A DNA stretch of 64,000 nucleotides, taken from an uncultured bacterium. Lineage in GTDB: Bacteria > Bacteroidota > Bacteroidia > CAILMK01. Below the pieces are notes generated by a model. The model ran no database searches. It saw only the letters and a program-made list of their open reading frames with translations, and was not told the DNA's origin. Below are positions 5,668-25,390 of the stretch, one piece after another. The position numbers and the translations under genes are program-made. Every line of letters starts with the position of its first letter. The stretch's first letter is position 1. The stretch is from positions 6,869-70,868 of the forward strand of contig CAIKRV010000084.1 of NCBI GenBank assembly GCA_903829945.1, read 5' to 3'.

Positions 5668-5711
5668 CTTATAAATTGTTTGTTTTGGATTATAATCAGG
5701 GGGCAAATTAA

Positions 5712-8236: not shown

Positions 8237-8244
8237 TATCTTTG
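8237..8244 (+). promoter_or_regulatory. -7 box TATCTTTG 4 nt before the ATG of the FAD-oxidase gene (leaderless arrangement)
   Basis: Seen in the sequence. Coordinates are +/-1. Confidence 0.45.
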
Positions 8245-8248
8245 CCCT

Positions 8249-10396: not shown

Positions 10397-10536
10397 ATTA
10401 ATGTATATACATTTAAAATTAAGTCAACCTATAAAAATTCACATAAACTTAACACTACTGATATTCAAATAAATAGCTTACAACATAGCAAGTGGATTGA
10501 TTACCAAATACATGATAAAAATATGTCTCATTTTAG

Positions 10537-10544
10537 TAATTTTG
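10537..10544 (+). promoter_or_regulatory. -7 box TAATTTTG 4 nt before the ATG of the Gfo/Idh/MocA gene (leaderless arrangement)
   Basis: Seen in the sequence. Confidence 0.45.
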
Positions 10545-10548
10545 CCGT

Positions 10549-11544
10549 ATGATTAAAATAGGAGTATTAGGTGCAGGTCACTTAGGAAAGATTCATATCA
10601 AATTATTAAAGGAAATTTCCGATTTCCAATTAGTGGGCTTTTATGATGCGGATGATGCAAATGCTGAAAAGGTTGCATTGGAATTTGGAATTCCTGCCTT
10701 TGAAAGCATTGATGCACTTTTAGAAGTTGTAGATGCTGTTGATATTGTTACTCCTACTATTTCTCATTTTGATTGTGCTTTAAAAGCCATCCAAGCAGGA
10801 AAACATTTTTTTATAGAGAAACCGCTCACCAATACGATTGAAGAGGGAGCAACACTTTTAAAATTAGTGGAAAGCTCCGGATTAAAAGCACAAGTTGGCC
10901 ATGTAGAAAGGTTTAATCCTGCATTTATTGCAGCCCAACCATTTGGCTTATCCCCCATGTTTGTAGAAGCCCATCGTTTGGCAGAATTTAAACCTCGCGG
11001 CACAGATGTATCAGTAGTATTGGATTTAATGATTCATGATATTGATATTTTATTAAGTATGGTTAAGAGTCCTGTTTATCAAGTTAGTGCTTCAGGAGTT
11101 GCAGTAATAAGTGATACGATTGATATTGCCAATGCACGCATAGAATTTGAAAACGGATGCGTAGCCAACCTAACGGCAAGCAGAGTATCTTTGAAAACAG
11201 AACGTAAAATGCGCATTTTTCAAAAAAATGCCTACATCACGATGGACTTTCATAAAAAGGAAGTTAATGTTATAAAAATCAAAGAATTGCAACCGGATGA
11301 AATACCAAGTTCCTTTTTAGTCATAGATCCGGGAGAAGGAAAACCAAGAAAAGAATTATTTTACAGTGCCCCTCCTATTCCTGAAATAAATTCTATAAAA
11401 AGAGAGTTAGAGTTGTTTGCTAATGCTATACAAAGTAACCAAGATACAGCAGTGAGCGTTAAAGACGGGTATGATTCCATGGTATTGGCAAAAATGATTT
11501 TAGATAAAATTGACGAACTAACTCAACGCTCATTAAAACAATGA
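10549..11544 (+). CDS. Gfo/Idh/MocA family NAD(P)-dependent oxidoreductase
   Basis: N-terminal Rossmann fold (IGVLGAGHLGKIH) plus the EKP motif (FIEKPL). Confidence 0.85.
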   Translation: MIKIGVLGAGHLGKIHIKLLKEISDFQLVGFYDADDANAEKVALEFGIPAFESIDALLEVVDAVDIVTPTISHFDCALKAIQAGKHFFIEKPLTNTIEEGATLLKLVESSGLKAQVGHVERFNPAFIAAQPFGLSPMFVEAHRLAEFKPRGTDVSVVLDLMIHDIDILLSMVKSPVYQVSASGVAVISDTIDIANARIEFENGCVANLTASRVSLKTERKMRIFQKNAYITMDFHKKEVNVIKIKELQPDEIPSSFLVIDPGEGKPRKELFYSAPPIPEINSIKRELELFANAIQSNQDTAVSVKDGYDSMVLAKMILDKIDELTQRSLKQ

Positions 11545-12434
11545 AAAAAATATATTTATTAATTGCTATAGTATTACTCGGGGTAAGCGCATGCAAACCT
11601 TCCGAAGATATTACCGGGGTACCTTCTTATGTGCATATCCAAAAGGCAGATGTACATATACCCGGCAATAATTTTTTGGTTCAGGGAGATTCTTTTCAAA
11701 ACATCACAGATATATGGCTTAGTGTGAGTGGTTCCGCTTTGGGAGCTTATGAATTACCCGCCACCATACCTGCATTATTTGACGGCAACCAAAATTTAGG
11801 GATCCAAGCAGGAATTAAAGAAAATGGCACCGGCGCCACCCGAGCTATTTATCCATTTTATACCTATATTATAAAAAATGTGAATCTGCAAAGAACAAAA
11901 ACATTAGATGTACATCCTATTTTTCAATATGACCCAAAAACCAAGTTTATTTTTAATGAAAGGTTTGAAAACTCTAATCCAACCATACAACCTTTTGTAG
12001 GAAATAATACGGCTAAAATAAGCTATCCGAAATTTACTGATCCAAATTATGCCTTGTATGGAGAAAACAGGTGCATGGAAGCACAATTAATAAATAGTGA
12101 TAGCGGGACATTTTATGCTTCGGATTTAAAATCCAGAACAGGTTTTACCATCGGCAATCCGGTATGGATGGAAATATCTTTTAATACTGAAGTACCGCTA
12201 ACAGTGGGAATGTTTGTTGTGCAAGCAGGCACGGGATCCTCCTATTCCAGTGATTTGGTAACCCTAAATACCACGGGGGGATTATGGAAAAAAGTTTATA
12301 TTAATTTTACCGACCTCATATATAACGAAGCAGCCGGTTCAGGATATTCTTTTTATATTGAAGGATTTAAAGCTGCGGGTAACCAAATTGACCATATTTA
12401 TATAGATAATATCAAACTACTGTGCTTTGAATAA
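11541..12434 (+). CDS. Hypothetical lipoprotein
   Basis: Lipobox LLGVSAC. It has a 4-nt ATGA overlap with the upstream oxidoreductase and an 8-nt overlap with the downstream sugar transferase, so it is operon-embedded. Confidence 0.5.
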   Translation: MKKIYLLIAIVLLGVSACKPSEDITGVPSYVHIQKADVHIPGNNFLVQGDSFQNITDIWLSVSGSALGAYELPATIPALFDGNQNLGIQAGIKENGTGATRAIYPFYTYIIKNVNLQRTKTLDVHPIFQYDPKTKFIFNERFENSNPTIQPFVGNNTAKISYPKFTDPNYALYGENRCMEAQLINSDSGTFYASDLKSRTGFTIGNPVWMEISFNTEVPLTVGMFVVQAGTGSSYSSDLVTLNTTGGLWKKVYINFTDLIYNEAAGSGYSFYIEGFKAAGNQIDHIYIDNIKLLCFE

Positions 12435-13845
12435 GAAATTAGGTCAAATCCAATATATATTAAATGATGTCCTTGGCTCTGTATTGGCATGGACCTTATT
12501 TTATATTTATAGAAAAGCAGTAATTGAGCCGATGCGCTATGGCTATAAAATTCCTATTTGGGAACCTGACAGAAATTATTATTTAGCCATTATTATTATT
12601 CCCATATTTTGGGTACTTGTGTTTTGGGTTTTTGGGAGCTATCGTGATGTATTTCGTAAATCACGCGTTAAGGAATTAACCCAAACTTTTGTAATTACTT
12701 TTTTAGGCGTAATTTTTATTTTCTTCACCTTGCTCATTGATGATGTAGTAAGTTCCTACGAAGCATTTCGTCATACATTTGCAGCATTATTATGTTTGCA
12801 GTTTTTTATTGTATTTGGATTAAGATTACTTTACTTAAGCACCATTAAAAGAAAGCTGAAGACAGGTAAAATCGGTTTTAATACCATCCTGGCAGGAAGT
12901 AATACCAAAGCACTGGAATTGTATAAGGAATTAACTTCCCAAAAATATTCCCAAGGATACTTCTTTAAAGGCTATGTCAGCATTGAAAACGGGAACAACG
13001 TACAGATGGATGAAAAACTCAATTTCTTAGGGAAATATGATGCTTTACCCGCCTTAATTAAGGAATATAAAATTCAGGAAGTCATTTTAGCAGTTGAAAG
13101 TTCGGAACACCATCTTATTAATACCATATTAAGTAAATTGGAAGAACTGAATGTAATTATTAAGGTATTGCCTGATATGTATGATATCTTGACCGGAGGT
13201 GTAAAAATGAATTATATTTTCGGCACTGCCTTAGTAGAAGTTCGCAATGAAATAATGCCCCAATGGCAGAAAAATTTCAAACGCCTATTTGATCTTTTCT
13301 TTGCAAGTACGGCAATGTTGCTTTTATCTCCTATTTATGGAATTTTAGCAATTGGAGTTCGTTTATCCTCGAAAGGGCCTATTTTTTATAGTCAGGAACG
13401 TATAGGCATCCATGGCAAACCTTTTAAAATTTATAAATTTAGAAGCATGTTTACCGATGCAGAAAAATTAGGGCCGCAATTAAGTTCTGAGGATGACCCG
13501 CGAATTACACCTTTTGGTGGTTTTCTGCGTAAATATCGTTTAGATGAATTTCCGCAATTTTGGAATGTATTTATCGGGGATATGAGTATTGTGGGTCCGC
13601 GACCGGAAAGACAATTTTTTATTGAACAATTATTAGTAGTTGCACCCAATTATCGCCATTTGCATAAGGTGCGCCCCGGCATTACTTCATGGGGACAGAT
13701 TAAATACGGCTATGCAGAAAATATTGAACAAATGGTAGAACGTATGAAATTCGATATTCTTTATATCGAAAACATGTCCATTGCCATGGATTTTAAAATC
13801 ATATTTTATACCGTCGTCATTATGCTGCAAGGCAGAGGCAAATAA
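12427..13845 (+). CDS. Polyprenyl-phosphate sugar phosphotransferase (WbaP / exopolysaccharide priming glycosyltransferase family)
   Basis: 472 aa with N-terminal TM helices. The C-terminal bacterial sugar transferase domain reads KFRSM...DEFPQF...VGPRPE. Confidence 0.85.
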   Translation: MNKKLGQIQYILNDVLGSVLAWTLFYIYRKAVIEPMRYGYKIPIWEPDRNYYLAIIIIPIFWVLVFWVFGSYRDVFRKSRVKELTQTFVITFLGVIFIFFTLLIDDVVSSYEAFRHTFAALLCLQFFIVFGLRLLYLSTIKRKLKTGKIGFNTILAGSNTKALELYKELTSQKYSQGYFFKGYVSIENGNNVQMDEKLNFLGKYDALPALIKEYKIQEVILAVESSEHHLINTILSKLEELNVIIKVLPDMYDILTGGVKMNYIFGTALVEVRNEIMPQWQKNFKRLFDLFFASTAMLLLSPIYGILAIGVRLSSKGPIFYSQERIGIHGKPFKIYKFRSMFTDAEKLGPQLSSEDDPRITPFGGFLRKYRLDEFPQFWNVFIGDMSIVGPRPERQFFIEQLLVVAPNYRHLHKVRPGITSWGQIKYGYAENIEQMVERMKFDILYIENMSIAMDFKIIFYTVVIMLQGRGK

Positions 13846-13847
13846 TA

Positions 13848-14369
13848 TTATTTTAATTGGAAAGAATTCAAAATATCAATGGCAGTTGCTGCATATTTTG
13901 GATACAGTGTTTGTAAGGATCTAAAAGTTAAAATATAAGATTTCTTATTTTTCAACCATAAGTATTGCGTACACTCAATAGGAAATTGTGCAATATCAGC
14001 TTTAAAATGCAACTTATAATATGATTGGTTTCCAGACTTTATAGTCACTGATTCAATAATAGTAATACCGGGTACTTTTGATTTAAATTCATCGACACTT
14101 ATTTCGCCAAATTTTTGCACATCCAATTTACTGTCATCAGCAGCTCTGACAGTTAAATTTACTGCTTGAATATGCATTTTATTATTGGCAGTATCTCCCG
14201 GTTCAATAATAAATGCTGTTTCAGCCCTGCCACTGGTATCCAAAATCCATGCTTTCGGATATTGAATTAAATAATCTGCTTTATCCAAGGTATTCCAATC
14301 GGCATGTTTCAGTTTAGTGCAAGAGGCTAAAACCAAAATAAAACAAAATAATGCAATTAACTTTTTCAT
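13848..14369 (-). CDS. Hypothetical lipoprotein
   Basis: Signal plus lipobox (LVLASC). It directly abuts the stop/start of the upstream TrpF-like gene. Confidence 0.5.
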   Translation of the reverse strand: MKKLIALFCFILVLASCTKLKHADWNTLDKADYLIQYPKAWILDTSGRAETAFIIEPGDTANNKMHIQAVNLTVRAADDSKLDVQKFGEISVDEFKSKVPGITIIESVTIKSGNQSYYKLHFKADIAQFPIECTQYLWLKNKKSYILTFRSLQTLYPKYAATAIDILNSFQLK

Positions 14370-15005
14370 TTATATTTCTAATAAATCAATAATACTATTC
14401 AAATCTGCAAAGTCTTTTACGCCCGGTCTTTCTTCGGCACTGCCGGAAATATTTATTCCAAAAGGATGAAATTCTTCTAGGGTAGAAAGAACATTTTTGC
14501 TTGTCCAAACAAAATTAAATATTACCGGATAAGACCTGCAAAACTCTATTAATAATAATTTGGCATGCGGATCATTCAAAAAAGACAATTGTTTGTCATA
14601 ATCAGTAAAGCTCAGCAAATAATATTTGGTATGTTTCTGAACGGCATCTACCATTAATATTATTTCATTAAAATGTTTACAATGGTCTAAATCGAAATTT
14701 TGTATTAAAGTAAAATGAGACAAAGCTTCAGATAATTCCTGATTAAAAGCATTGAGCTGAATATAATCCAAACCTAAAGACTCCGTTTCACTACGTATAT
14801 AGGAAGCGGGAAGATCATCCCATTCTGCAACCATCATTGGGCCATCAATCCATCCGGCAATTTCTTTAAACTTTTCCGTATCCAAATATTGGGGATGTTC
14901 AGGATTAAAATTAAAACCTAAAAAAGAAGCCCCACAACCGGCAGCATACCGTGCATCGGATAAATTATTAACGGCACCGAATTTAATATTTACTTTAGTA
15001 TTCAT
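14370..15005 (-). CDS. Phosphoribosylanthranilate isomerase-like (TrpF family) TIM-barrel protein
   Basis: N-terminus KFGAVNNLSDARYAAGCGASFLGFNF and C-terminus GSAEERPGVKDFADL align with the TrpF core (KVCG...GAD..G.IF ... PGIKD). The middle region is divergent. Confidence 0.55.
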   Translation of the reverse strand: MNTKVNIKFGAVNNLSDARYAAGCGASFLGFNFNPEHPQYLDTEKFKEIAGWIDGPMMVAEWDDLPASYIRSETESLGLDYIQLNAFNQELSEALSHFTLIQNFDLDHCKHFNEIILMVDAVQKHTKYYLLSFTDYDKQLSFLNDPHAKLLLIEFCRSYPVIFNFVWTSKNVLSTLEEFHPFGINISGSAEERPGVKDFADLNSIIDLLEI

Positions 15006-15257
15006 GTTATAAAACTTAAATGAAACTCAATTTATGATTTTCAAATTTTCGAGGGCAAATTTAACATTATAAATGCTTACTTTCTTAAATTACTTAATTA
15101 AGAAGCAATAGTAACATTAAGCAAGAAATTGCGTCATGCGATAAAATATATTTATTAATTAAAGTATTATACAATTACATCTAAATGCTTTAATTATATT
15201 TGAATACTTAAAAACACCATAATTTACGTTACAATTTCACCTATATAAATAATAATC

Positions 15258-16142
15258 ATGGAATTAACAATTTCAAACTTAAGTAAAACCTATGCTAATG
15301 GCACCCAGGCAATGATTAACATAAATTTAAACATACCTGCAGGCATGTTTGGATTATTGGGGCCGAATGGCGCAGGAAAATCCACTTTAATGCGTACCAT
15401 AGCTACCCTGCAAGAGGCAGATCACGGGAGCATTGTAATGGATGGTTTAGATGTCCTTAAAGAAAAAGATGAAGTTCGGAAGGTACTTGGATATTTACCT
15501 CAGGATTTCGGGGTTTATCCTAAGGAAAGCGCCATCAATATGCTCAATCATTTTGCGGTACTTAAGGGAATAACCAATAGCAGTACAAGAAAAGAAATTG
15601 TATCAGGATTATTACAATTTGTAAATTTATATGAGGACAGGAACAAAAAGTTAGGCTCCTTTTCCGGAGGGATGAAACAAAGATTTGGTATTGCACAAGC
15701 TTTATTGGGCAATCCTAAATTAATCATAGTTGATGAGCCTACGGCAGGATTAGACCCTGCGGAACGGAATCGCTTCTTAAATTTATTAAGTGAAATTGGA
15801 GAAAAAAGCATAGTTATTTTATCTACCCATATAGTAGATGATGTTACAGATTTATGTCCGAACATGGCGATCATTTTTAAAGGTGAAGTATTATTAAGCG
15901 GAAAACCAATGGACGCCATTAGAACCTTTGAAAACAAAATATGGGAAAAGTCCATTGAAAAGGATACTTTGGAATCCTATCAAAACCAGTATCATGTGAT
16001 TTCATTTAAAAGTGTGGCGGGCAAATCAAATATCCATGTATTGAGCAATACTGCACCCGATGAAGGTTTTACTATGATTGCACCTACTTTAGAGGATGTA
16101 TATTTTGCTGAAATAACGAAAAAAACATCCAAACTCAATTAA
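15258..16142 (+). CDS. ABC transporter ATP-binding protein (ABC-2 type)
   Basis: Walker A GPNGAGKST, signature FSGGMKQR, Walker B IIVDEPTAGLD. Confidence 0.9.
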   Translation: MELTISNLSKTYANGTQAMININLNIPAGMFGLLGPNGAGKSTLMRTIATLQEADHGSIVMDGLDVLKEKDEVRKVLGYLPQDFGVYPKESAINMLNHFAVLKGITNSSTRKEIVSGLLQFVNLYEDRNKKLGSFSGGMKQRFGIAQALLGNPKLIIVDEPTAGLDPAERNRFLNLLSEIGEKSIVILSTHIVDDVTDLCPNMAIIFKGEVLLSGKPMDAIRTFENKIWEKSIEKDTLESYQNQYHVISFKSVAGKSNIHVLSNTAPDEGFTMIAPTLEDVYFAEITKKTSKLN

Positions 16143-16174
16143 GGCTCTTTTCACATTTATAAAATCATTCAATT

Positions 16175-19100
16175 ATGTTTAAGTCTATTTTTACATATGA
16201 GCTGCATTATAATTCCAGAAAAGTAGTCAACCTTATTTTCTTCCTACTTTTCCTTGGGATTTCCTATTTAATAGCACTCGTCATAGGAGGAACCTTTACC
16301 AGTGCCACCAGTGATATCGGCAAACTGCATATGAATTCCTCTTTGCTTATCAGTAGTCTCTTTTCAATTATTATATATTGGACCTTGCTCCTATTCCCAT
16401 CCATAGTAGGTGATGCCATTTATAGAGACTTCCGAACGGAGAGTTACTCCTTGTTTTTCACTAAGCCCATCAGCAAATTCGGTTATTTAGCCGGTAGGTT
16501 TTTAGGCTCCATAGCTACTTTGGCTATTATTTTATTGGGATTTGAATTGGGATTTCTCATAGGCACCCTGATGCCTTGGATCAATCAAGATTTAAAAGGG
16601 CCCTTAAATTTATTGTACTATATAAATGATTATTTTCTTTTTTTACTTCCCAATGTTATTTTAATGGGGAGCATAGTATTTTGTGCAGCTACCCTGAGTA
16701 GGAATATTTTATTTACCTACATTGTATGTATTTTATTTTACGTAATTAAAGCAGTAGCGGCTAGTTTATTATCCAAAATTGATAATCATACTTTATCTGC
16801 ATTATTGGATCCTTTCGGCTCCGAGGCGATAAGTATTTACACCAGGTATTGGTCAGTTGCCGAACAAAACAATAATTTATTACCCCTAAAAGGCATTATT
16901 TTATACAATAGATTATTGTGGTTGGGTATATCGGCAATATTATTTTTATTCACTTATTTAAGATTTGAGCTAAAATATGCTGACGGAATTTCATGGTTCA
17001 GAAAAAGAAAAGCTTCACTTAATGAAGAATTTACTCCGATAGTAAAAAATAAAATCACTGAAAGTTCATTAAGTAAGTCCTCCAATAATATTTGGAGTCA
17101 ATTTAAGTTTGAATTAAAATTTGAATATTTATCCATTGTTAAAAGTATTCCGTTCATCATTTTCTTATTAATTGGAATAGGACTCATCATACTTACTTCT
17201 ACGCAATTGGACGATATGTACGGCACCAGTATTTATCCGTTAACTTCCAGAATTATACCATTAACGCAAGGCGCATTTAATTTGGTCTTAGTTATTTTCA
17301 TCATCTATTTTAGCGGTGAAATAGTTTGGAAAGAAAGAAGCTTACGCATCAATCAAGTTTATGATGCCATGCCTTTTCCATCCTGGTTGCCTTTAATTTC
17401 AAAATTAAGTGCTTTTTTCTTAGTGCAACTAAGCATCTTGGGCTGTGCTGGATTATGCGGCATCGGTATTCAGTTATTTCATGGATTTTATCAAATTGAA
17501 TTTGATTTATACTTTAAGATGCTATTATTAGAATCATGGTATTTTATCTTATTCTCTGCTTTGGCATTTAGCACACAAGTTTTAGTAAATAATAAGTATA
17601 TAGCTTATGTTTTTGTGATCGGAATCTTTGTGTTTCTTCAGTTTGCAGGATTGATGGGGCTAAATCAACCCATATATTTATATGGAGCGGATAGCGGCTA
17701 CCTCTATTCTGATATGAATAAATTCGGTCATTTTATGTATTCCTTATTTATTCATAAAATTTATTGGACATCCTTTGCAGGAATTTTAGTGGTCATTGCC
17801 ATTTTATTTTGGCAAAGAGGCATGGATACTCGTTTCTCTATCCGCCGGAAAATTGCAGTTGCTCGTTTAAATAAAAAGTTAGGATTAGTCATTGTTTTAT
17901 GTACCATATTATTTCTGGCATTTGGCAGTTTTATATTTTATAATACTCATATTTTACATGCTTATAAAACAAATTTTGAATCAGAAGAACAAATTGCACA
18001 ATTTGAAAAAAAATATAAAAAATATGAGCAATTGGTACAACCTAGAATTACGGATGTGGTTTTAGATGCGGCTATTTATCCCAAAGAAAGAGCTGCCACT
18101 TTCATTGGATATTATTGGATGAAAAATAAAAGTAAAAGTCCGATCAATGAAGTACATTTAAATTTGAATGCTTACGAACGCATAGTAAAATTACAATTTT
18201 CAAAACCATGCGATTTGAGCCTAAATGATACAGACAACGGATATCGAATTTATAAACTCAAACAATCCATGATGCCGGGGGATTCTATGCGTTTGGATTT
18301 TGATCTGAGACTGGCTGTAAAAGGATTTAAATATAGCGGTGGAAGCAGCGCAAGCGTTTTATACAATGGCACCTTCATTAATAACCAATCATCTTTGCCA
18401 AGCATTGGCTATCCGGAAGCCGGCGAACTCAGTGATGATAAAACAAGAATCAAGCACGGACTAAAACCGAAAGACTTATTGCCACCTGCTACCGATACCA
18501 ATGGCGCTAAAATGAATTATATTGCCAATGATGCCGATTGGATAAATTTTGAAGCAACCGTGAGTACTACGGAAGATCAAATTGGCATTGCTCCGGGATA
18601 TCTGCAAAAAGAATGGACCAAAGAAGGACGCAAATATTTCCATTATAAAATGGATACGAAAATCTTAAATTTTTACTCCATATTATCTGCCAACTATACT
18701 GTCCTGAATGATTCTTGGACTTCCCCGGAAGGTAAAAAAGTTAAGATTCAAATCTTTTATCAGGAAGGACAAACTTATGATTTAGATATGATGGTAAAGG
18801 GAATAAAAAAGACTTTAGCCTATTGCAGTAAAAATTTCAGTCCGTATCAATACCATCAGGTAAGGATTATAGAATTCCCGCGATATGCAAGTTTTGCACA
18901 ATCTTTCCCGAATACGATTCCATTTTCTGAAAGCATTGGTTTTATTGCAAAGGTGGATCCAAATAATCCTAATGATATTGCCTATCCGTTTTATGTTACC
19001 TGTCACGAGGTGGCACATCAATGGTGGGGACACCAGGTAATTGGTGCCATGGTAAAAGGCTCTACGCTGATGTGCGAATCCATGGCACAATATACATCCT

Positions 19101-19810
19101 TGATGGTGATGGAAAAGGAATATGGCAGGAATATGATTGAAAAGTTTCTGAAATATGAAATGGATATTTATTTAAGATCAAGAGGGATGGAGAAAAAAGG
19201 GGAAGAATCCTTGGAAGATGTGGAGCAACAATCCTATGTGTATTATCAGAAGGGCGGTATTGCCATGTATGCCTTGCGCGATTATATTGGTGAAGATTCC
19301 TTAAATCAAGCTTTGAAAAGATATGTTGCAGCAGTGGCCTTCCACGGACCGCCTTATACTAATAGTCGTGAATTTTTAAAATATATTCGATCCGCCTGTC
19401 CGGATTCTCTACAATATTTAATTAGTGATATGTTTGAGAAAATTACTTTCTACGAAAATAGAACCGTGAAAGCTGAATCCGTAAAACTCCCCAATGGGAA
19501 ATACAGAGTTGACCTTGAAGTAAAAATTGCTAAAAAATATTCCGATAAACTGGGAAATGAGAAAAGTGCTAAAGTTGATGATTATATAGAAGTTGGGGTT
19601 TACGGAGTAAGCAAGGACCCCATTCATCCGGTATTCTTGAGTTTAAAAAAGATGAAATTAACGGATAAGACAAGCAAATTATCCATCATCGTGGATGCAA
19701 AACCAAGCGAAGCAGGCTTAGATCCAAGACATTTATTAATTGACCGAGATATTGATGATAATGTTATTCAAGTAACAGATCATGCAGAAATCGTAAGTAA
19801 AAATAAATAA
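16175..19810 (+). CDS. Fusion protein: ABC-2 family permease (N-terminal, ~560 aa, ~12 TM) + M1 family zinc aminopeptidase domain (C-terminal)
   Basis: 1211 aa. The N-terminal half is polytopic membrane. The C-terminal half carries the gluzincin motif HEVAHQWWGH with a downstream Glu. It immediately follows the ABC ATPase. Confidence 0.8.
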   Translation: MFKSIFTYELHYNSRKVVNLIFFLLFLGISYLIALVIGGTFTSATSDIGKLHMNSSLLISSLFSIIIYWTLLLFPSIVGDAIYRDFRTESYSLFFTKPISKFGYLAGRFLGSIATLAIILLGFELGFLIGTLMPWINQDLKGPLNLLYYINDYFLFLLPNVILMGSIVFCAATLSRNILFTYIVCILFYVIKAVAASLLSKIDNHTLSALLDPFGSEAISIYTRYWSVAEQNNNLLPLKGIILYNRLLWLGISAILFLFTYLRFELKYADGISWFRKRKASLNEEFTPIVKNKITESSLSKSSNNIWSQFKFELKFEYLSIVKSIPFIIFLLIGIGLIILTSTQLDDMYGTSIYPLTSRIIPLTQGAFNLVLVIFIIYFSGEIVWKERSLRINQVYDAMPFPSWLPLISKLSAFFLVQLSILGCAGLCGIGIQLFHGFYQIEFDLYFKMLLLESWYFILFSALAFSTQVLVNNKYIAYVFVIGIFVFLQFAGLMGLNQPIYLYGADSGYLYSDMNKFGHFMYSLFIHKIYWTSFAGILVVIAILFWQRGMDTRFSIRRKIAVARLNKKLGLVIVLCTILFLAFGSFIFYNTHILHAYKTNFESEEQIAQFEKKYKKYEQLVQPRITDVVLDAAIYPKERAATFIGYYWMKNKSKSPINEVHLNLNAYERIVKLQFSKPCDLSLNDTDNGYRIYKLKQSMMPGDSMRLDFDLRLAVKGFKYSGGSSASVLYNGTFINNQSSLPSIGYPEAGELSDDKTRIKHGLKPKDLLPPATDTNGAKMNYIANDADWINFEATVSTTEDQIGIAPGYLQKEWTKEGRKYFHYKMDTKILNFYSILSANYTVLNDSWTSPEGKKVKIQIFYQEGQTYDLDMMVKGIKKTLAYCSKNFSPYQYHQVRIIEFPRYASFAQSFPNTIPFSESIGFIAKVDPNNPNDIAYPFYVTCHEVAHQWWGHQVIGAMVKGSTLMCESMAQYTSLMVMEKEYGRNMIEKFLKYEMDIYLRSRGMEKKGEESLEDVEQQSYVYYQKGGIAMYALRDYIGEDSLNQALKRYVAAVAFHGPPYTNSREFLKYIRSACPDSLQYLISDMFEKITFYENRTVKAESVKLPNGKYRVDLEVKIAKKYSDKLGNEKSAKVDDYIEVGVYGVSKDPIHPVFLSLKKMKLTDKTSKLSIIVDAKPSEAGLDPRHLLIDRDIDDNVIQVTDHAEIVSKNK

Positions 19811-19838
19811 GCTTAACTTTGCCGGAGAAAATATAATT

Positions 19839-20705
19839 ATGCAGGCGCCAGATTGGGAAGATTATGAATTGATAGATTGCGGAGCATTTAAAAAGCTGGA
19901 AAGATTTGGTGCGTATATTTTAATACGCCCTGAACCACAAGCATTATGGGATCCTAAATTGAGCTTTAAGGAATGGAGAGCGAAAGCTCATGCAGAGTAT
20001 GAAGCTACCAGCAGTACCACCGGTGAATGGAAAAAATTTAAACCTATTCCTTTTCAATGGTTTATTCAATGGAAGAGCAAGGATTTTAATTTGAAGTTTC
20101 AATTAAAATTTACTTCTTTTAAGCATTTGGGCATTTTCCCGGAACAGGCGGCCAATTGGACTTATCTGTTTAATTATTTAAAGAACTGCGGAATACGAGA
20201 GCCAAAAGTATTAAATCTATTTGCCTATACGGGTGGTGCGTCTTTAGCAGCCAAAGCAGCCGGAGCAGATGTGATCCACTTGGACTCGGTAAAACAAGTA
20301 GTTAGTTGGGCAAAAGAAAATATGGAAGTTTCCGGATTAAAAGATATCCGATGGGTGGTGGAGGATGCGGCCTTATTTGCAGCACGTGAATTTAAAAGAG
20401 CACATTTATACAATGCCATCATAATGGACCCTCCATCGTATGGTTTAGGGCCTAAAGGAGAACGATGGAAATTAGAAGAACACCTAAACCAAATGCTCAA
20501 AAACGTATTGCCTTTATTGGATCCGGATAATCATTGTTTTATTATTAATACCTATTCTCTCAACTTATCACCGCTTATTTTAAATAATCTTGTCAGATCC
20601 ATTCTGCCGAATGCCAAAGGCATAGAACATGGTGATTTGTACATTATGAGCAGTCAAAAACAAGAAATGCCTTTAGGCGCTTATCTTCGTTTTCAAAAAC
20701 ATTAG
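19839..20705 (+). CDS. Class I SAM-dependent methyltransferase (RlmI/RlmK-like, DPPxY motif)
   Basis: IIMDPPSYG catalytic motif and a Rossmann-like fold (AYTGGASLAAKAAGA). Confidence 0.65.
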   Translation: MQAPDWEDYELIDCGAFKKLERFGAYILIRPEPQALWDPKLSFKEWRAKAHAEYEATSSTTGEWKKFKPIPFQWFIQWKSKDFNLKFQLKFTSFKHLGIFPEQAANWTYLFNYLKNCGIREPKVLNLFAYTGGASLAAKAAGADVIHLDSVKQVVSWAKENMEVSGLKDIRWVVEDAALFAAREFKRAHLYNAIIMDPPSYGLGPKGERWKLEEHLNQMLKNVLPLLDPDNHCFIINTYSLNLSPLILNNLVRSILPNAKGIEHGDLYIMSSQKQEMPLGAYLRFQKH

Positions 20706-20732
20706 TATGACCTTCTATTTAGCACTTTACCT

Positions 20733-21191
20733 ATGAAAAAATATATTATCTTAACCTTACTTATTTTTGGAATGCACCAAGCTTTTGGTTGCAAACCTAA
20801 GTTAGTAATGAGTATAAAACATACGCCTTGTTTTGGTAAATGCCCTGATTATGAGTTGCAGATTTATTCCAATGGTATGGTATATTATGATGGGGGAAGA
20901 TTCTCAGCCCGTTTGGGTAAAATGCATAAGAAAATAACTAAAAAGGAAGTCAAGGATTTGATAGCAAAATTTAACAATGCAAAATTCTTTGAATTTAATG
21001 ATAAATATACTGCACAGGTAACCGATATGCCCACTACTTATATCAGCTTTTATGACCACGGAAAAAGCAAAACCATCACTGATTATTATGATGCTCCACC
21101 GGCACTAAGGCATTTGGAAATGTTATTAAATGCCTACGCAGACAATGACGAAGGTTGGATTTTAGAGAAGGATTCAGCTCCTAAGAAATAG
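20733..21191 (+). CDS. Hypothetical small lipoprotein
   Basis: Signal peptide (FGMHQAFGC). Conserved Cys pattern TPCFGKCPDYEL. Confidence 0.45.
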   Translation: MKKYIILTLLIFGMHQAFGCKPKLVMSIKHTPCFGKCPDYELQIYSNGMVYYDGGRFSARLGKMHKKITKKEVKDLIAKFNNAKFFEFNDKYTAQVTDMPTTYISFYDHGKSKTITDYYDAPPALRHLEMLLNAYADNDEGWILEKDSAPKK

Positions 21192-21320
21192 TTGCTTTTA
21201 GCTGTAAAATATCCTAAGATTTTGCCAATAGCCTGACATTATTTTTTTTATCAGCTCAAAATCAAAGCTTTAGGCAAATAAAATCTTAGGAGAAATGTAT
21301 AATTATTCCAAAAAAATCAC

Positions 21321-21328
21321 TATCTTTG
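21321..21328 (+). promoter_or_regulatory. Bacteroidota sigma-A -7 box (TAnnTTTG) upstream of rplY
   Basis: TATCTTTG lies ~27 nt before the rplY ATG. The ORF-track start codon is the TTG inside this box. Confidence 0.5.
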
Positions 21329-21355
21329 CACCACTTTTTTTTAAATCAATATCAA

Positions 21356-21931
21356 ATGAAAACGATAGACCTTAAAGGGTATTACAGAAATCAAACAGGT
21401 AAAGAAGCAAATGGCCGTATTCGTAAAGACGGTTGGGTACCATGCGAACTTTATGGAGGTGGCGAAAACGTACACTTTGCCGCATTTATTGCTGATTTCA
21501 AACAAATCGTGTATACGCCTAATACTTATACAGTTAAAATTGACATTGAAGGCACTACCCACGCTGCGGTAATCAAGGAAGTACAATTCAATCCTTTAAA
21601 TGAGGAAATTATTCACGTTGATTTTGTACGCGTTCAAGAAGATAAGCCAATGAAAATCAAATTACCAATTCACTACGTGGGTAATTCCATAGGTGTTCGT
21701 GAAGGTGGTAAATTAATTAAAAAGCTAAGATTTTTAAATGTAAAAGGTTTGGCTAAAAATATGCCGGCTGCCATTGAAGTGGACATTTCTGAAATCGGCT
21801 TAGGAAAATCTATCCGCGTATCTGATATTAAGGTAGAAAATTTAGAAGTTTTAAACGCTCCTGCTATTCCGGTGGCTTCTGTAAGTGTACCTCGTAGCTT
21901 GAAAGGTGATGAAACTCCTGCCAAGAAGTAA
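21356..21931 (+). CDS. rplY: 50S ribosomal protein L25 / general stress protein Ctc
   Basis: MKTIDLKGYYRNQTGKEANGRIRKDGWVPCELYGG is a typical L25/Ctc N-terminus. The start is corrected to the ATG at 21356; the track began at a TTG at 21326. Confidence 0.85.
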   Translation: MKTIDLKGYYRNQTGKEANGRIRKDGWVPCELYGGGENVHFAAFIADFKQIVYTPNTYTVKIDIEGTTHAAVIKEVQFNPLNEEIIHVDFVRVQEDKPMKIKLPIHYVGNSIGVREGGKLIKKLRFLNVKGLAKNMPAAIEVDISEIGLGKSIRVSDIKVENLEVLNAPAIPVASVSVPRSLKGDETPAKK

Positions 21932-21963
21932 TTCTTTTCAGATTTTAAAATATATATGTTGTA

Positions 21964-21986
21964 GGGTAGGTTTAAATAACCTACCC
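21964..21986 (+). terminator. Stem-loop (9-bp perfect stem GGGTAGGTT/AACCTACCC) after rplY, followed by a T-rich tract
   Basis: Seen directly in the sequence. The T-run is interrupted (TATTTATTTG). It could be a weak terminator or attenuator between rplY and pth. Confidence 0.4.
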
Positions 21987-22015
21987 TATTTATTTGATAA
22001 TCTTTTGTAAAGCTT

Positions 22016-22576
22016 ATGAAATATCTTATCACTGGTTTGGGAAATCCAGGTGCTGAATATGAATTTACTCGGCATAATATCGGTTTCTTGGTCTTAGATG
22101 CCTTAGCAGCTGAAGCAGGTATTTCTTTTATGCCTGATCGATTTGGATTAATTGCCGAAGGGCGCTTAAAAAACAAACAAATTGTTTTGCTAAAACCTGA
22201 CACATACATGAACCTCAGTGGAAAAGCAGTTAGGTATTGGATGCAAGCCAAGGATATTCCTTTAGAACAAACCATTGTAGTAACTGATGATTTGGCCTTA
22301 CCCCTGGGCAAACTAAGAATGAAAACTAAAGGAAGTGCCGGGGGCCACAACGGACTAAAAAGTATTGCCGAACTTTTACAAACGGAAAATTATCCTCGTT
22401 TACGTTTTGGCATTGGTGATAATTTTTCTAAAGGCAAGCAAGTTGATTTTGTATTAGGGACTTGGAATAAATCAGAACAAGAAATTATAAAAAATCAAAT
22501 TCCAATGGCTGTTGATGCCTTAAAAAGCTTTATTTTTGTCGGCATATCAAAGACTATGGAATTACATAATCGCTAG
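22016..22576 (+). CDS. pth: Peptidyl-tRNA hydrolase
   Basis: LITGLGNPGAEYEFTRHNIGF and the GGHNG motif. Confidence 0.9.
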   Translation: MKYLITGLGNPGAEYEFTRHNIGFLVLDALAAEAGISFMPDRFGLIAEGRLKNKQIVLLKPDTYMNLSGKAVRYWMQAKDIPLEQTIVVTDDLALPLGKLRMKTKGSAGGHNGLKSIAELLQTENYPRLRFGIGDNFSKGKQVDFVLGTWNKSEQEIIKNQIPMAVDALKSFIFVGISKTMELHNR

Positions 22577-22667
22577 GATTACTAATAAAATTCAGGGCTG
22601 CGTGTTAAAAGTTTGGAGGGTTTTTATGGTTTTTTTTGCCCCACAGATTTTTTAACCGCAGCTTTTT

Positions 22668-23168
22668 TTATTGTTCAAATTCTCCTGCTAAATATCTTTT
22701 GGACAGGTTTACATATACTTCGGCATTCTTTCGCACTTTTGCTATTTGCGATTCCGTTAAGGTTTTTACAATTTTTGCTGGTGAACCAATAACTAAACTG
22801 TAATCAGGTATTTCCATACCTTCCGTCACCAGTGCATGTGCACCAATAATACACCAATTACCTATTTTAGCCCCATTGAGTACCGTAGAACGCATTCCTA
22901 TCAAGGTATGGTTACCAACAGAGGCACCATGAATAATAGCAGCATGGCCAACAATTACATCGTGTCCGATATGCACCGGAAATCCCGGGTCCACATGGAT
23001 AATAGCCCCATCCTGAATATTGGTTCGTTCCTCAATCGTAATAACATCAGCATCTGCCCGCAAAACTGCATTAAACCAAACGGAACAATCCTTGGCCAGT
23101 TTAACCTGACCTATAACTGTTGCATTAGGTGCTATAAAAAGCTCCGATTCTTTACTTACATTTGCCAT
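22668..23168 (-). CDS. Gamma carbonic anhydrase family / hexapeptide-repeat protein (YrdA/PaaY-like)
   Basis: Left-handed beta-helix hexapeptide repeats, with His residues in the IHVDPG and HGASVG contexts. Confidence 0.8.
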   Translation of the reverse strand: MANVSKESELFIAPNATVIGQVKLAKDCSVWFNAVLRADADVITIEERTNIQDGAIIHVDPGFPVHIGHDVIVGHAAIIHGASVGNHTLIGMRSTVLNGAKIGNWCIIGAHALVTEGMEIPDYSLVIGSPAKIVKTLTESQIAKVRKNAEVYVNLSKRYLAGEFEQ

Positions 23169-23227
23169 AATTATTTATTTAAATACTCAATAGAAGCCCT
23201 TAACTCCTTGAAGTGCGAAATTAACTA

Positions 23228-24466
23228 ATGCAATTTATAATTAAGAATATTAAAGGTTTAATCCAAGCAGCTGAAAATATAAATAATAAAGTTTGCGGGA
23301 AAGAAATGAGCGTATTGCCCATTATTGAAAATGCTTATTTAATCATTCAAGACGGACTTATTTACGATTATGGCAGCATGGAGCATTGTCCTCAGATAGA
23401 TGGAGAAAGCATTGATGCTTCCGGTAAATATGTATTTCCATCTTATATTGATGCGCATACCCATTTGGTATTTGCGGGTAGTAGGGAAAAAGAATTTGAA
23501 TTAAGAATTAAAGGAGCCTCTTATGAAGAAATAGCGGCTGCCGGCGGCGGAATTTTAAATTCTGCTCATAAACTAAAAGATGCTTCTTTTGAATCCTTAT
23601 ATGATGCCGCTTATCAACGAATCATGGACTTAGTAAAGCTGGGTACCGGAGCTATTGAAATAAAAAGTGGCTACGGACTTAACCTTGCCTCTGAAATTAA
23701 AATGCTTCGTGTAATAAAGGAGTTGAAAAAAAATAGTCCGATAAAAATTAAATCCACCTTTTTAGGTGCTCATGCTTATCCTTTAGCCTATAAAAATAAT
23801 CACGAAGCGTATTTGGATGAAATAATCCAAAAAATGCTTCCTCAAATAGCTGAAGAAGATTTGGCCGATTATATTGATGTATTTTGTGATCGTGGTTTTT
23901 TTAGTCCGGAAGAAACAGATAAAATTTTAAAGGCAGGAATTAGTTATGGCTTAAAGCCAAGAATACATGCCAATGAATTGGATTATTCCGGCGGCATTCA
24001 AGTCGGTGTAAAAAATAATGCTTTATCAGTAGATCACTTAGAATATACCGGAGATGAAGAAATAAAATGCTTATTGCAAGGCAATACCATGCCTATCCTG
24101 CTCCCAAGCACCGCATTCTTTTTAGGCTTGCACTATCCTCCTGCACGCAAAATAATTGATTCAGGACTACCCTTGGCTCTGGCCAGCGATTATAATCCGG
24201 GGTCCTCTCCTTCCGGAAATATGAATTTTGTGCTTTCTTTAGCTTGTATTAAACTAAAAATGACACCTGAAGAAGCCATCAATGCGGGCACTATTAATGC
24301 TGCTTGTGCATTGGAATTGGAAAATTCTCATGGAAGTATCAGTAAAGGAAAAGTGGCAAATTTATTTATCACTAAAGAAATTAATTCCTATCAATATATT
24401 CCCTATAATTTTGGGCATAACAATATATCAAGTATTATTTTAAACGGTCGCGTGCTAAACATTTAA
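23228..24466 (+). CDS. hutI: Imidazolonepropionase
   Basis: Amidohydrolase fold (IDAHTHLVFAGSR, HANEL, ASDYNPGSSP), characteristic of HutI. Confidence 0.85.
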   Translation: MQFIIKNIKGLIQAAENINNKVCGKEMSVLPIIENAYLIIQDGLIYDYGSMEHCPQIDGESIDASGKYVFPSYIDAHTHLVFAGSREKEFELRIKGASYEEIAAAGGGILNSAHKLKDASFESLYDAAYQRIMDLVKLGTGAIEIKSGYGLNLASEIKMLRVIKELKKNSPIKIKSTFLGAHAYPLAYKNNHEAYLDEIIQKMLPQIAEEDLADYIDVFCDRGFFSPEETDKILKAGISYGLKPRIHANELDYSGGIQVGVKNNALSVDHLEYTGDEEIKCLLQGNTMPILLPSTAFFLGLHYPPARKIIDSGLPLALASDYNPGSSPSGNMNFVLSLACIKLKMTPEEAINAGTINAACALELENSHGSISKGKVANLFITKEINSYQYIPYNFGHNNISSIILNGRVLNI

Positions 24467-24470
24467 TTAT

Positions 24471-25343: not shown

Positions 25344-25390
25344 TTTCTACAAATAAATAATAACTTTGAAACAGATTTCGAATTTAAATT

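What the first reader, a model, noticed from the sequence alone, without database searches (positions are those of the whole stretch)
15258..19810. ABC ATPase followed by a 1211-aa ABC-2 permease fused to an M1 zinc aminopeptidase domain
The N-terminal ~560 aa are a polytopic ABC-2 type permease. The C-terminal ~600 aa carry the gluzincin HEVAHQWWGH motif of M1 aminopeptidases. The gene lies 33 nt after a cognate ABC ATPase. Fusing a transport permease to an exopeptidase implies coupled peptide processing and translocation, possibly export or trimming of a specific peptide or protein N-terminus at the membrane. Fusions of this kind occur in Bacteroidota but have, to my knowledge, no experimentally assigned function. 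The topology of the peptidase domain (periplasmic or cytoplasmic) would determine the model.
Basis: partly seen in the sequence, partly recalled or inferred. Interest (0 to 1): 0.6.

Follow-up and report, generated by a model that had tools for sequence, protein, structure and literature searches.

The report
ABC-2 permease fused to periplasmic M1-like peptidase
This is a real two-gene module, an ABC ATPase plus a 13-helix ABC-2 membrane protein fused to a zinc peptidase that most likely faces the periplasm; it belongs to a large, already catalogued bacterial family whose function nobody has tested.

Summary
An ABC ATPase gene (15258-16142) lies 32 nt upstream of a 1211-aa ORF (16175-19810).

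The ORF encodes two tandem 6-TM ABC-2 repeats, a 13th TM helix, and a three-domain M1-fold zinc peptidase. It is not a frameshift. At least 597 species genomes and about 1,977 protein clusters carry the same ~1,200-aa protein. The cognate ATPase sits directly upstream in 78 of 78 testable loci, and no third gene is conserved.

The family is far broader than Bacteroidota: also Acidobacteriota, Gemmatimonadota, Beta- and Gammaproteobacteria, Myxococcota. It is already catalogued as TCDB 3.A.1.145 (M. xanthus Q1D520, 2013) and named by NCBI "ABC transporter permease/M1 family aminopeptidase". I found no functional study.

New points:
- The positive-inside rule places the peptidase in the periplasm.
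- The zinc site and catalytic Tyr are invariant or nearly so (at least 374 of 375 sequences).
- The GxMEN exopeptidase motif is replaced by FAQSF, and the M1 helical lid domain is missing. The "aminopeptidase" label is therefore unsupported.

Best guess, at low confidence: ATP-driven export or extraction of peptide-like substrates that are handed to the fused periplasmic peptidase. The main rival is NosDFY/FtsEX-like mechanotransmission.

This is a new member of a known but uncharacterised kind, of moderate interest.

The parts
15195..15202 (+). Candidate Bacteroidota-type -7 promoter box TATATTTG (TAnnTTTG), 56 nt before the ATPase start codon. Weak evidence.
   Evidence: Read directly from the sequence. 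The consensus is from my own knowledge. No TTG at 19-nt spacing was found. Not tested further.
15258..16142 (+). ABC transporter ATP-binding subunit, 294 aa, DrrA/GldA-like ABC-2-type ATPase. Walker A is at nt 15360-15383, signature SGG at 15663-15671, Walker B LIIVDE at 15720-15737, and H-loop at 15822-15830.
   Evidence: ORF. PF00005 at E 2.5e-28. The best NCBIfam hits are GldA (174.7 bits, cut-off 402.6) and DrrA (171.1 bits, cut-off 312), both below cut-off. Motifs. An orthologue at 54-70% identity lies directly upstream of the fusion gene in 78 of 78 loci.
16143..16174 (+). 32-nt intergenic spacer between the ATPase and the fusion gene, suggesting co-transcription.
   Evidence: Short spacers or overlaps are also seen in related loci.
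16175..19810 (+). Fusion gene, 1211 aa: ABC-2 repeat 1, linker, ABC-2 repeat 2, TM13, then an M1-fold zinc peptidase (domains I-III).
16175..16978 (+). ABC-2 membrane repeat 1 (aa 1-268): N-terminal amphipathic helix 2-15 and TM1-TM6. It carries a conserved cytoplasmic YRDF(E) after TM2 and conserved periplasmic motifs DPFG (212-215) and YW..E.N (225-232).
   Evidence: Hydropathy, DSSP of the AF2 model, conservation, Pfam ABC2_membrane_4/_3/_2/_5 on homologues, and a NosY profile hit over positions 6-135 at E 0.02.
16979..17080 (+). K/R-rich, poorly conserved, low-confidence linker (aa 269-302), predicted cytoplasmic.
   Evidence: pLDDT below 50 at 269-276 and 281-297. The family mean is 11 K+R in loop 264-324. 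This is the lowest-conservation region.
17081..17872 (+). ABC-2 membrane repeat 2 (aa 303-566): amphipathic helix 303-322, TM7-TM12 and cytoplasmic helix 554-564. It carries conserved VW(K/R)ER after TM8 and periplasmic motifs YGT.TYP.T (349-357) and YSDMN..GH (511-519).
   Evidence: hhalign of repeat 1 against repeat 2 gives probability 85.8%, E 5.4e-6 over 230 columns, indicating an internal duplication.
17873..17956 (+). TM13 (aa 567-594), an extra helix preceded by a K/R-rich loop. It carries the chain to the periplasmic side.
   Evidence: KD hydropathy peak 2.70 at 569-587. Helix 567-594 in the model. The family mean is 6.0 K+R in loop 546-566. The helix is hydrophobic in all 116 aligned members.
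17972..18769 (+). M1-like N-terminal beta domain (domain I, aa ~600-865), including linker helix 600-617 and a family-specific conserved insertion at about 747-787 (EL.DD..RKKYGL.PK.RM).
   Evidence: DSSP. Foldseek alignments of ~600 columns to ERAP1, ERAP2 and PepN. Conservation. That the insertion is family-specific is my own reading of the alignment against remembered M1 motifs, not a tool result.
18770..19441 (+). Thermolysin-like catalytic domain (domain II, aa ~866-1089). FAQSF (aa 907-911, nt 18893-18907) occupies the GxMEN position. HEVAH is at aa 944-948 (nt 19004-19018). E968, the third zinc ligand, is at nt 19076-19078 (HExxH-X19-E). Y1024, the catalytic Tyr in Y.KG, is at nt 19244-19246.
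   Evidence: PF01433 over 878-1073. HMMER alignments to ERAP2. Motif conservation in 116 and 375 sequences. This is the most conserved region, with 25% of positions at 0.9 or above.
19442..19807 (+). C-terminal beta-sandwich (domain III-like, aa 1090-1211). No helical domain IV follows.
   Evidence: DSSP shows strands only from 1090 to 1199. The protein ends at 1211.

Best explanation
The two genes encode one machine. A homodimer of the 294-aa ATPase would dock on a single polypeptide that supplies both ABC-2 membrane halves. A 13th helix takes the chain across the inner membrane, so the fused, catalytically competent M1-fold zinc peptidase sits in the periplasm on top of the transporter.

Most likely, ATP hydrolysis drives the ABC-2 module to expel or extract a peptide-like, probably hydrophobic or membrane-associated, substrate. 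Candidates are signal-peptide remnants, membrane-active antimicrobial peptides and lipopeptides. The substrate would be delivered directly to the peptidase, which cleaves it. Because the amine-anchoring GxMEN motif and the lid domain IV are missing, the enzyme probably acts as an endopeptidase or broad peptidase, or on N-blocked substrates, rather than as a strict aminopeptidase.

Shown: gene pair, fusion, domain order, conservation of catalytic residues, absence of GxMEN and domain IV, strict ATPase linkage.
Predicted: 13 TM helices, periplasmic location, rigid docking of the peptidase on the membrane domain.
Inferred only: direction of transport, substrate class, coupling.
For: Architecture:
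- ORFs.
- AF2 model pLDDT 88.3 and pTM 0.85 for residues 1-1200, which implies a defined inter-domain arrangement.
- C-terminal model pLDDT 92.2.
- Foldseek hits to ERAP2, ERAP1, PepN, IRAP and EryP, E 1e-17 to 1e-25, ~600 aligned columns.

Topology:
- 13 hydrophobic helices.
- Family-averaged K+R is 25.8 in predicted cytoplasmic loops against 6.8 in predicted periplasmic loops.

Active enzyme:
- H944, E945, H948, E968 and Y1024 are kept in 374-375 of 375 members, and the catalytic domain is the most conserved part.

Not a classical aminopeptidase:
- GAMEN of ERAP2 aligns with FAQSF, and none of 375 members has GxMEN.
- No domain IV.
- PepN equivalog score is 20.8 bits against a cut-off of 591.

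Functional coupling:
- The ATPase is upstream in 78 of 78 loci and no third gene is conserved.
- Length and architecture are uniform in the 150 best of 1,977 clusters.
- Periplasmic loops of the membrane domain hold more near-invariant positions (13%) than TM segments (5%) or cytoplasmic loops (8%).

ABC-2 type:
- Pfam hits on homologues, NosY hit, internal duplication.

Precedent, from my own knowledge and not tested here: ABC-2-type systems such as LanFEG, PmtCD and EcsAB/PptAB expel membrane-active or signal-peptide-derived peptides.
Against: - No substrate, transport direction or peptidase activity is known for any member.
- I could not inspect model coordinates, so the position of the active site relative to the membrane-domain exit is unknown.
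- The only solved membrane-domain relative detectable by sequence is NosY (E 0.02). It works as a mechanotransducer rather than a classical exporter, which favours the rival.
- Invariant family-specific acidic residues (E900, E919, and E751 in the insertion) might substitute for the GxMEN glutamate, so aminopeptidase activity is not excluded.
- There are no conserved neighbours such as precursor peptides, regulators or outer-membrane partners to hint at a substrate.
Confidence: 0.4

Rival explanations
1. Mechanotransmission without translocation. The ABC-2 module does not move a substrate across or out of the membrane. It uses cytoplasmic ATP hydrolysis to switch the periplasmic peptidase between open and closed or active and inactive states, with the periplasmic face of the membrane domain replacing the missing M1 lid domain IV. 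This would work like NosFY acting on NosD, or FtsEX acting on EnvC, PcsB or RipC.
For: - The only solved membrane-domain relative found by profile search is NosY of NosDFY.
- M1 domain IV, which gates ERAP1-type enzymes, is absent.
- High pTM (0.85) suggests the peptidase is packed against the membrane domain.
- Periplasmic loops are enriched in near-invariant residues.
- That NosDFY and FtsEX act as mechanotransducers is from my own knowledge.
Against: - The NosY match is marginal (E 0.02) and covers only about 130 residues.
- Nothing here distinguishes gating from delivery.
- ABC-2 families matched by the homologues (PF12730, PF12698) are mostly annotated as exporters.
Confidence: 0.25
2. 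One reading: a specific cytoplasmic peptide or protein is exported by the ABC-2 module, and its N-terminus is trimmed by the fused domain acting as a true M1 aminopeptidase (coupled maturation and export).
For: - M1 fold and intact zinc site and Tyr.
- PCATs are a precedent for peptidase-ABC fusions (own knowledge; PCAT1 paper PMC8794836 listed).
- M1 enzymes EryP/AplP process lanthipeptide leaders; EryP 7v9p matches at TMq 0.64.
Against: - The GxMEN motif that anchors the substrate alpha-amino group is absent in all 375 members.
- No precursor-peptide or biosynthetic gene is conserved next to the pair in 86 loci.
- A housekeeping-like spread over at least 597 species in six or more phyla argues against one dedicated secreted peptide.
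Confidence: 0.15
3. Nutritional role: the periplasmic peptidase digests imported environmental peptides, and the ABC module either merely anchors it or takes up the products.
For: - Hosts are largely proteolytic soil and aquatic heterotrophs (Bacteroidota, Acidobacteriota, Myxococcota).
- One locus has a TonB-dependent receptor just upstream (L002).
Against: - Strict conservation of a dedicated ATPase (78 of 78) is unnecessary for an anchor.
- ABC-2 folds are not known importers, and no substrate-binding protein is conserved nearby.
- The TonB-dependent receptor neighbour is not conserved.
Confidence: 0.1
4. Artefact or dead domain: a frameshift or assembly error joined two genes, or the M1 part is a non-catalytic remnant.
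For: None found. The only sequence difference from the public contig inside the gene that changes the protein is P890 (window) against L890.
Against: - The same continuous ORF of ~1,170-1,260 aa occurs in independent genomes and metagenomes.
- The junction (TM13, helix 600-617) is conserved and confidently modelled.
- Catalytic residues are invariant or nearly so (at least 374 of 375).
Confidence: 0.01

Closest known systems
TCDB family 3.A.1.145 (peptidase-fused ABC-2 family; founding member Myxococcus xanthus Q1D520) = NCBI 'ABC transporter permease/M1 family aminopeptidase'
   Same: [quoted passage not shown] NCBI gives this name to homologues at 40-44% identity over 99% of the query (P0020, P0057, P0061). 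Myxococcota members are 38% identical over the full length (L047, L069).
   Different: None in architecture. Q1D520 itself was not aligned here. The family has no assigned function. The 2013 paper guessed export of an amino acid or derivative.
M1 aminopeptidases (E. coli PepN, human ERAP1/ERAP2/IRAP, APN)
   Same: The fold of domains I-III matches (Foldseek E down to 1.5e-25, ~600 columns, TMq 0.58-0.62). HExxH plus a distal Glu zinc site and the catalytic Tyr in Y.KG are shared.
   Different: - Only 10-13% identity.
- GxMEN is replaced by FAQSF.
- The spacer is HExxH-X19-E instead of X18.
- There is no helical domain IV.
- A conserved insertion sits in domain I.
- The domain is tethered to an ABC-2 membrane domain.
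- PepN equivalog model score is 20.8 bits against a cut-off of 591.
NosDFY (NosY permease, PDB 7o0y)
   Same: NosY is the only solved membrane-domain sequence hit by the family profile (E 0.02). It is an ABC-2 6-TM permease with a separate ATPase and a large periplasmic partner sitting on it (partner role from my own knowledge).
   Different: NosY is a separate 276-aa chain acting as a homodimer, and its partner NosD is a beta-helix copper-handling protein, not a peptidase (own knowledge). The match is marginal.
PCATs (peptidase-containing ABC transporters, e.g. PCAT1)
   Same: A peptidase is fused to an ABC transporter, coupling cleavage and export.
   Different: In PCATs the peptidase is a cytoplasmic N-terminal C39 cysteine peptidase on a type IV exporter with a fused NBD (own knowledge; PMC8794836 listed). 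Here a periplasmic C-terminal zinc peptidase sits on an ABC-2 membrane domain with a separate NBD.
FtsEX with EnvC, PcsB or RipC
   Same: An ABC ATPase in the cytoplasm controls a hydrolase outside the membrane (own knowledge).
   Different: FtsX has a different 4-TM fold, the hydrolase or activator is a separate protein, and the targets are peptidoglycan amidases or endopeptidases.
EryP/AplP-type M1 metallopeptidases of class III lanthipeptide maturation (PDB 7v9p)
   Same: This is the highest TM-score among the listed PDB hits (TMq 0.64). It is an M1 fold known to have endopeptidase as well as aminopeptidase activity (own knowledge).
   Different: It is a soluble, full four-domain M1 enzyme at 13% identity, and it is not linked to an ABC-2 permease.

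Membership tests
ABC transporter ATPase (NBD) | Walker A, Q-loop, LSGGQ-type signature, Walker B with catalytic Glu, H-loop | tested here: met
   GPNGAGKS 35-42, LPQ 80-82, SGG 136-138, LIIVDE 155-160, STH 189-191. PF00005 at 99.8 bits against a cut-off of 25.
GldA (gliding motility ABC ATPase) | Score at or above the TIGR03522 equivalog cut-off | tested here: not met
   174.7 bits against a cut-off of 402.6. The family also occurs in Proteobacteria and Acidobacteriota.
ABC-2 type permease (Pfam clan of ABC2_membrane families) | Significant match to an ABC2_membrane Pfam model | tested here: inconclusive
   The query itself has no hit, even at E up to 10 on sub-fragments. Of 36 orthologous N-terminal regions, 28 match PF12730 (best E 9.6e-12), 22 match PF12698, 13 match PF13346 and 12 match PF12679.
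ABC-2 type permease | 6-TM unit with an N-terminal amphipathic helix, a cytoplasmic N-terminus and a partner NBD encoded alongside | tested here: met
   There are two 6-TM repeats, each preceded by an amphipathic helix. The repeats are homologous (hhalign E 5.4e-6). The K+R bias is 25.8 against 6.8. The ATPase is adjacent in 78 of 78 loci. Fold comparison of the membrane domain alone could not be run.
MEROPS M1 / Pfam Peptidase_M1 | HExxH plus a distal Glu zinc-binding motif and the catalytic Tyr | tested here: met
   H944, E945, H948, E968 (X19 spacer, one residue longer than the canonical X18) and Y1024 are conserved in 374-375 of 375 members. PF01433 at 54.2 bits against a cut-off of 27.7.
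MEROPS M1 / Pfam Peptidase_M1 | M1 fold (beta domain I plus thermolysin-like domain II) | tested here: met
   Foldseek against ERAP1, ERAP2 and PepN gives E 1e-17 to 1e-25 over ~600 columns.
M1 aminopeptidase (exopeptidase activity) | GxMEN motif whose Glu binds the substrate alpha-amino group | tested here: not met
   GAMEN of ERAP2 aligns with F907-A-Q-S-F911. Family variants are FAQSF, FAQAF, FAQSL, YAQSF and FAESF, and none of 375 members has GxMEN.
M1 aminopeptidase (PepN/ERAP type) | C-terminal helical domain IV capping the active site | tested here: not met
   After catalytic helices ending at ~1088 there is only a ~120-aa beta-sandwich before the stop codon.
PepN equivalog (TIGR02412) | Score at or above the curated cut-off | tested here: not met
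   20.8 bits against a cut-off of 591.2.
TCDB 3.A.1.145 (peptidase-fused ABC-2) | [quoted passage not shown] | tested here: met
   1211 aa, 13 predicted TM helices and an M1 domain, matched to the description in PMC3924187.
TCDB 3.A.1.145 (peptidase-fused ABC-2) | Direct sequence homology to Q1D520 | not tested
Myxococcota homologues are 38% identical over the full length, and a search from one of them did not list M. xanthus among its 120 best hits.
PCAT (peptidase-containing ABC transporter) | N-terminal C39 cysteine peptidase and a fused NBD | tested here: not met
   No C39 or ABC_tran domain is found in the 1211-aa protein. The NBD is a separate gene.
Known anti-phage defence systems (PADLOC) | Match of the fusion protein to a defence-system model | tested here: not met
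   Zero families matched the fusion protein. The ATPase gives only generic P-loop hits.

The most novel reading that the evidence does not exclude
The family could be an ATP-dependent extracytoplasmic protease. Cytoplasmic ATP hydrolysis would be transmitted through a duplicated ABC-2 membrane domain to extract, unfold or gate substrates for a fused periplasmic zinc endopeptidase. This would give diderm bacteria energy-dependent proteolysis or peptide clearance on the ATP-free side of the inner membrane, a principle not described for any characterised protease as far as I know.
Probability: 0.25. Interest if true: 0.75.

Novelty: new member of a known kind. Interest (0 to 1): 0.4.

Why it matters
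The module is abundant. There are about 1,977 clusters at 50% identity and at least 597 species, spread across Bacteroidota, Acidobacteriota, Gemmatimonadota, Proteobacteria, Myxococcota and Rhodothermota. Its architecture is strikingly uniform, yet no member has a tested function.

If the ABC-2 engine really powers or feeds a periplasmic metallopeptidase, it would be a new way of coupling ATP to proteolysis outside the cytoplasm. Possible roles include signal-peptide clearance, envelope quality control, and resistance to membrane-active peptides.

There is also a practical point. The database label 'aminopeptidase' is not supported by the motif evidence and should be read as 'M1-fold metallopeptidase'.

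Tried and rejected
1. Frameshift or assembly artefact: rejected. The single ORF recurs everywhere.
2. Degenerate pseudo-peptidase: rejected. Catalytic residues are invariant or nearly so (at least 374 of 375).
3. Gliding-motility GldA or PepN orthology: rejected. Both score below the curated cut-offs.
4. Anti-phage defence system: no PADLOC hit for the fusion.
5. A third conserved partner gene (outer-membrane, periplasmic, precursor peptide or regulator): none. Clustering ORFs from 86 loci recovered only the fusion, the ATPase and their antisense shadow ORFs. Neighbours differ in every locus inspected.
6. A second copy in the window: none. There is only an unrelated ABC ATPase at 54633-55139.
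7. Direct Pfam detection of ABC-2 in the query: failed. The assignment rests on homologues.
9. Model coordinates are not exposed, so the geometry between active site and membrane could not be examined.
10. Literature: ten searches found only the 2013 TCDB cataloguing paper. The main text of the M. xanthus ABC mutant survey does not mention this protein.
11. Bacteroidota -33/-7 promoter with fixed spacing: no match. Only a lone TAnnTTTG box was seen by eye.
12. tRNA and Rfam scans of the window: empty.

Full report
**Observation**

The window has an ATG-started ORF at 15258..16142 (+, 294 aa). After a 32-nt spacer comes a second ORF at 16175..19810 (+, 1211 aa).

The first product is a standard ABC ATPase. 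It matches PF00005 at E 2.5e-28. Walker A, Q-loop, signature, Walker B (LIIVDE, E160) and H-loop are all present. Its best curated matches are GldA- and DrrA-type ABC-2 ATPases, but both score well below the family cut-offs.

The second product carries HEVAHQWWGH at residues 944-953. It matches Pfam Peptidase_M1 over residues 878-1073 (54.2 bits against a cut-off of 27.7).

**The fusion is real, and the family is large and uniform**

- A word-indexed search returned full-length homologues at 37-69% identity and 99-100% coverage, almost all 1,180-1,260 aa.
- An exhaustive HMMER scan of 1.84 billion cluster representatives found 1,977 clusters at E <= 1e-30. Nearly all of the best 150 match as a single stretch spanning residues ~1-1200.
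- The named organisms include Hymenobacter, Adhaeribacter, Tenacibaculum, Polaribacter, Taibaiella, Ekhidna, Emticicia, Massilia, Janthinobacterium, Undibacterium, Rudaea and Enhygromyxa. Many MAGs also appear, from Acidobacteriota, Gemmatimonadota, Myxococcota, Rhodothermota (Salinivenus), Burkholderiales and others.
- The frameshift scenario is refuted. The junction (TM13 and the following helix) is conserved and confidently modelled.
- The window is nearly identical to ENA metagenome scaffold ERZ19027195 scaffold_355. It differs by a few SNPs and one homopolymer length. One SNP gives the family-conserved P890 in the window against L890 in the public contig.

**Gene context**

In 78 of 78 related loci with enough upstream DNA, an orthologue of the ATPase (54-70% identity) lies directly upstream on the same strand. 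The same holds for the six contigs with called genes.

I clustered all ORFs from 86 loci. Only the fusion, the ATPase and their antisense shadow ORFs recurred. The unit is therefore a self-contained two-gene module. In the window, the downstream methyltransferase gene begins 28 nt after the fusion stop, but it is not conserved elsewhere. Some Myxococcota contigs carry two or three paralogous pairs.

**Membrane part**

- Hydropathy shows 13 hydrophobic segments.
- The AlphaFold2 model of residues 1-1200 has mean pLDDT 88.3 and pTM 0.85. It shows an amphipathic helix (2-15) and TM1-6, then a disordered K/R-rich linker (269-302). A second amphipathic helix (303-322) and TM7-12 follow, then a short cytoplasmic helix (554-564) and a 13th TM helix (567-594).
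- The two 6-TM units are homologous (hhalign probability 85.8%, E 5.4e-6, 230 columns). One chain therefore supplies both membrane halves, and the ATPase would act as a homodimer (inference).
- No ABC-2 Pfam model hits the query itself. Of 36 orthologous N-terminal regions, 28 hit ABC2_membrane_4, and others hit ABC2_membrane_3, _5 or _2.
- A family profile hits only one solved chain, NosY of NosDFY, and only marginally (E 0.02).
- Averaged over 116 members, predicted cytoplasmic loops hold 25.8 K+R and predicted periplasmic loops 6.8. By the positive-inside rule the N-terminus is cytoplasmic. After 13 crossings the peptidase is then periplasmic. This is a prediction, not a measurement.
- Within the membrane domain, near-invariant positions are most frequent in the periplasmic loops (13%, against 5% in TM segments and 8% in cytoplasmic loops). 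The motifs are DPFG, YW..E.N, YGT.TYP.T and YSDMN..GH.
- That pattern, together with the high pTM, suggests a conserved interface or pathway between the outer face of the transporter and the peptidase (inference).

**Peptidase part**

- The separate model of residues 588-1211 has pLDDT 92.2 and pTM 0.91. It shows a beta domain, a thermolysin-like helical catalytic domain and a final beta-sandwich.
- Foldseek against the PDB returns ERAP2, ERAP1, IRAP, PepN, APN and puromycin-sensitive aminopeptidase. It also returns the lanthipeptide protease EryP. E-values run from 1e-17 to 1e-25 over ~600 columns at 10-13% identity.
- No solved structure of the fusion appears among the listed hits.
- H944, E945, H948, E968 (HExxH-X19-E) and Y1024 (Y.KG) are conserved in 374-375 of 375 full-length members. 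The catalytic domain is the most conserved region. The domain is therefore almost certainly an active zinc hydrolase.
- Two hallmarks of M1 aminopeptidases are missing.
- First, both the single-sequence and the profile alignments to ERAP2 place GAMEN opposite F907-A-Q-S-F911. The family uses (F/Y)A(Q/E)(S/A)(F/L), and none of 375 members has GxMEN.
- Second, the helical domain IV that caps the M1 active site is absent.
- Family-specific invariant residues (E900, S918, E919, H953, Q954) and a conserved insertion around 747-787 surround the site. I could not test whether one of them replaces the amine-anchoring Glu, because model coordinates are not exposed.
- The cautious description is 'M1-fold metallopeptidase, exopeptidase motif absent', not 'aminopeptidase'.

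**What is already known**

The architecture is catalogued. Getsin et al. 2013 (PMC3924187) assigned Myxococcus xanthus Q1D520 (1200 aa, 13 TMS) to a new family, TC 3.A.1.145.1. [quoted passage not shown]

NCBI names homologues 'ABC transporter permease/M1 family aminopeptidase'. Ten full-text searches found no functional, genetic or structural study. The main text of the M. xanthus ABC mutant survey does not mention the protein. PADLOC has no model for it.

**Mechanism**

I commit to a coupled machine, at confidence about 0.4. The ATPase dimer would drive the duplicated ABC-2 domain to expel or extract a peptide-like, probably hydrophobic or membrane-associated, substrate. That substrate would pass to the fused periplasmic peptidase, which cleaves it as an endopeptidase or broad-specificity peptidase.

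Support:
- the strict gene linkage;
- the periplasmic placement;
- the intact catalytic centre;
- the open active site lacking an N-terminus anchor;
- the conserved periplasmic loops;
- from my own knowledge, the precedent of ABC-2-type exporters of membrane-active peptides (LanFEG, PmtCD, EcsAB/PptAB).

Rivals:
- Pure mechanotransmission, as in NosDFY or FtsEX, with the transporter face acting as the missing lid (about 0.25). The NosY hit and the missing domain IV favour it.
It is weakened by the absent GxMEN and by the lack of any conserved precursor gene.
- A nutritional role (about 0.1).
- An artefact (about 0.01).

None of these is tested. The decisive experiments are listed separately.

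**Verdict**

The gene pair is a new member of a known, catalogued but functionally uncharacterised family.

The added value here is fourfold:
- the predicted periplasmic placement;
- the loss of GxMEN and domain IV despite a fully conserved catalytic centre;
- the internal duplication of the membrane domain;
- the strict two-gene modularity and the very broad distribution.

Interest is moderate (0.4). If the family proves to be an ATP-powered extracytoplasmic protease, it would deserve much more.

Noticed in passing
window 10175-25810 compared with L001 (ENA ERZ19027195 scaffold_355): The window is not identical to the public contig. There are six SNPs and one T8/T9 homopolymer difference near 21334. 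The SNP at 18843 gives P890 (family-conserved) in the window and L890 in the public contig. The SNP at 19690 is synonymous.
   Followed up: yes
L003 (JGI Ga0315912_10000030, 411,660-bp contig), 4070-8570 and 9970-13570: Two tandem ATPase-plus-fusion pairs are separated by one gene. A third paralogue (P0144) lies on the same contig. This suggests paralogue expansion, and perhaps substrate diversification, in some Myxococcota.
   Followed up: partly
window 15195-15202 and about 21318-21325: TAnnTTTG boxes (the Bacteroidota -7 promoter consensus, from my own knowledge) lie upstream of the ATPase gene (TATATTTG) and of the L25 gene (TATCTTTG). This is consistent with a Bacteroidota origin for the window. 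No TTG at fixed 19-nt spacing was found.
   Followed up: partly
window 54633-55139 (-): A second, unrelated ABC ATPase is present (33% identity to the ATPase of the finding over 169 aa).
   Followed up: no
window 5906-8134 (-): A 742-aa ORF with a signal-peptide-like N-terminus and a GWSFGGY motif looks like a DPP-IV/S9 family peptidase. This was judged by eye only.
   Followed up: no
window 19839-20705 (+): A SAM-dependent methyltransferase gene (PF10672 on the identical public gene) starts only 28 nt after the fusion stop codon, so it may be co-transcribed here. It is not a conserved neighbour in other loci.
   Followed up: partly
window 1-64000: No tRNA genes and no Rfam family reach threshold anywhere in the 64-kb window.
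   Followed up: yes
fusion protein aa 747-787 (window 18413-18535): A highly conserved segment, EL.DD..RKKYGL.PK.RM, lies within the M1-like domain I. It appears to be an insertion relative to classical M1 enzymes. Its role is unexplained, and it may shape the substrate pocket.
   Followed up: no
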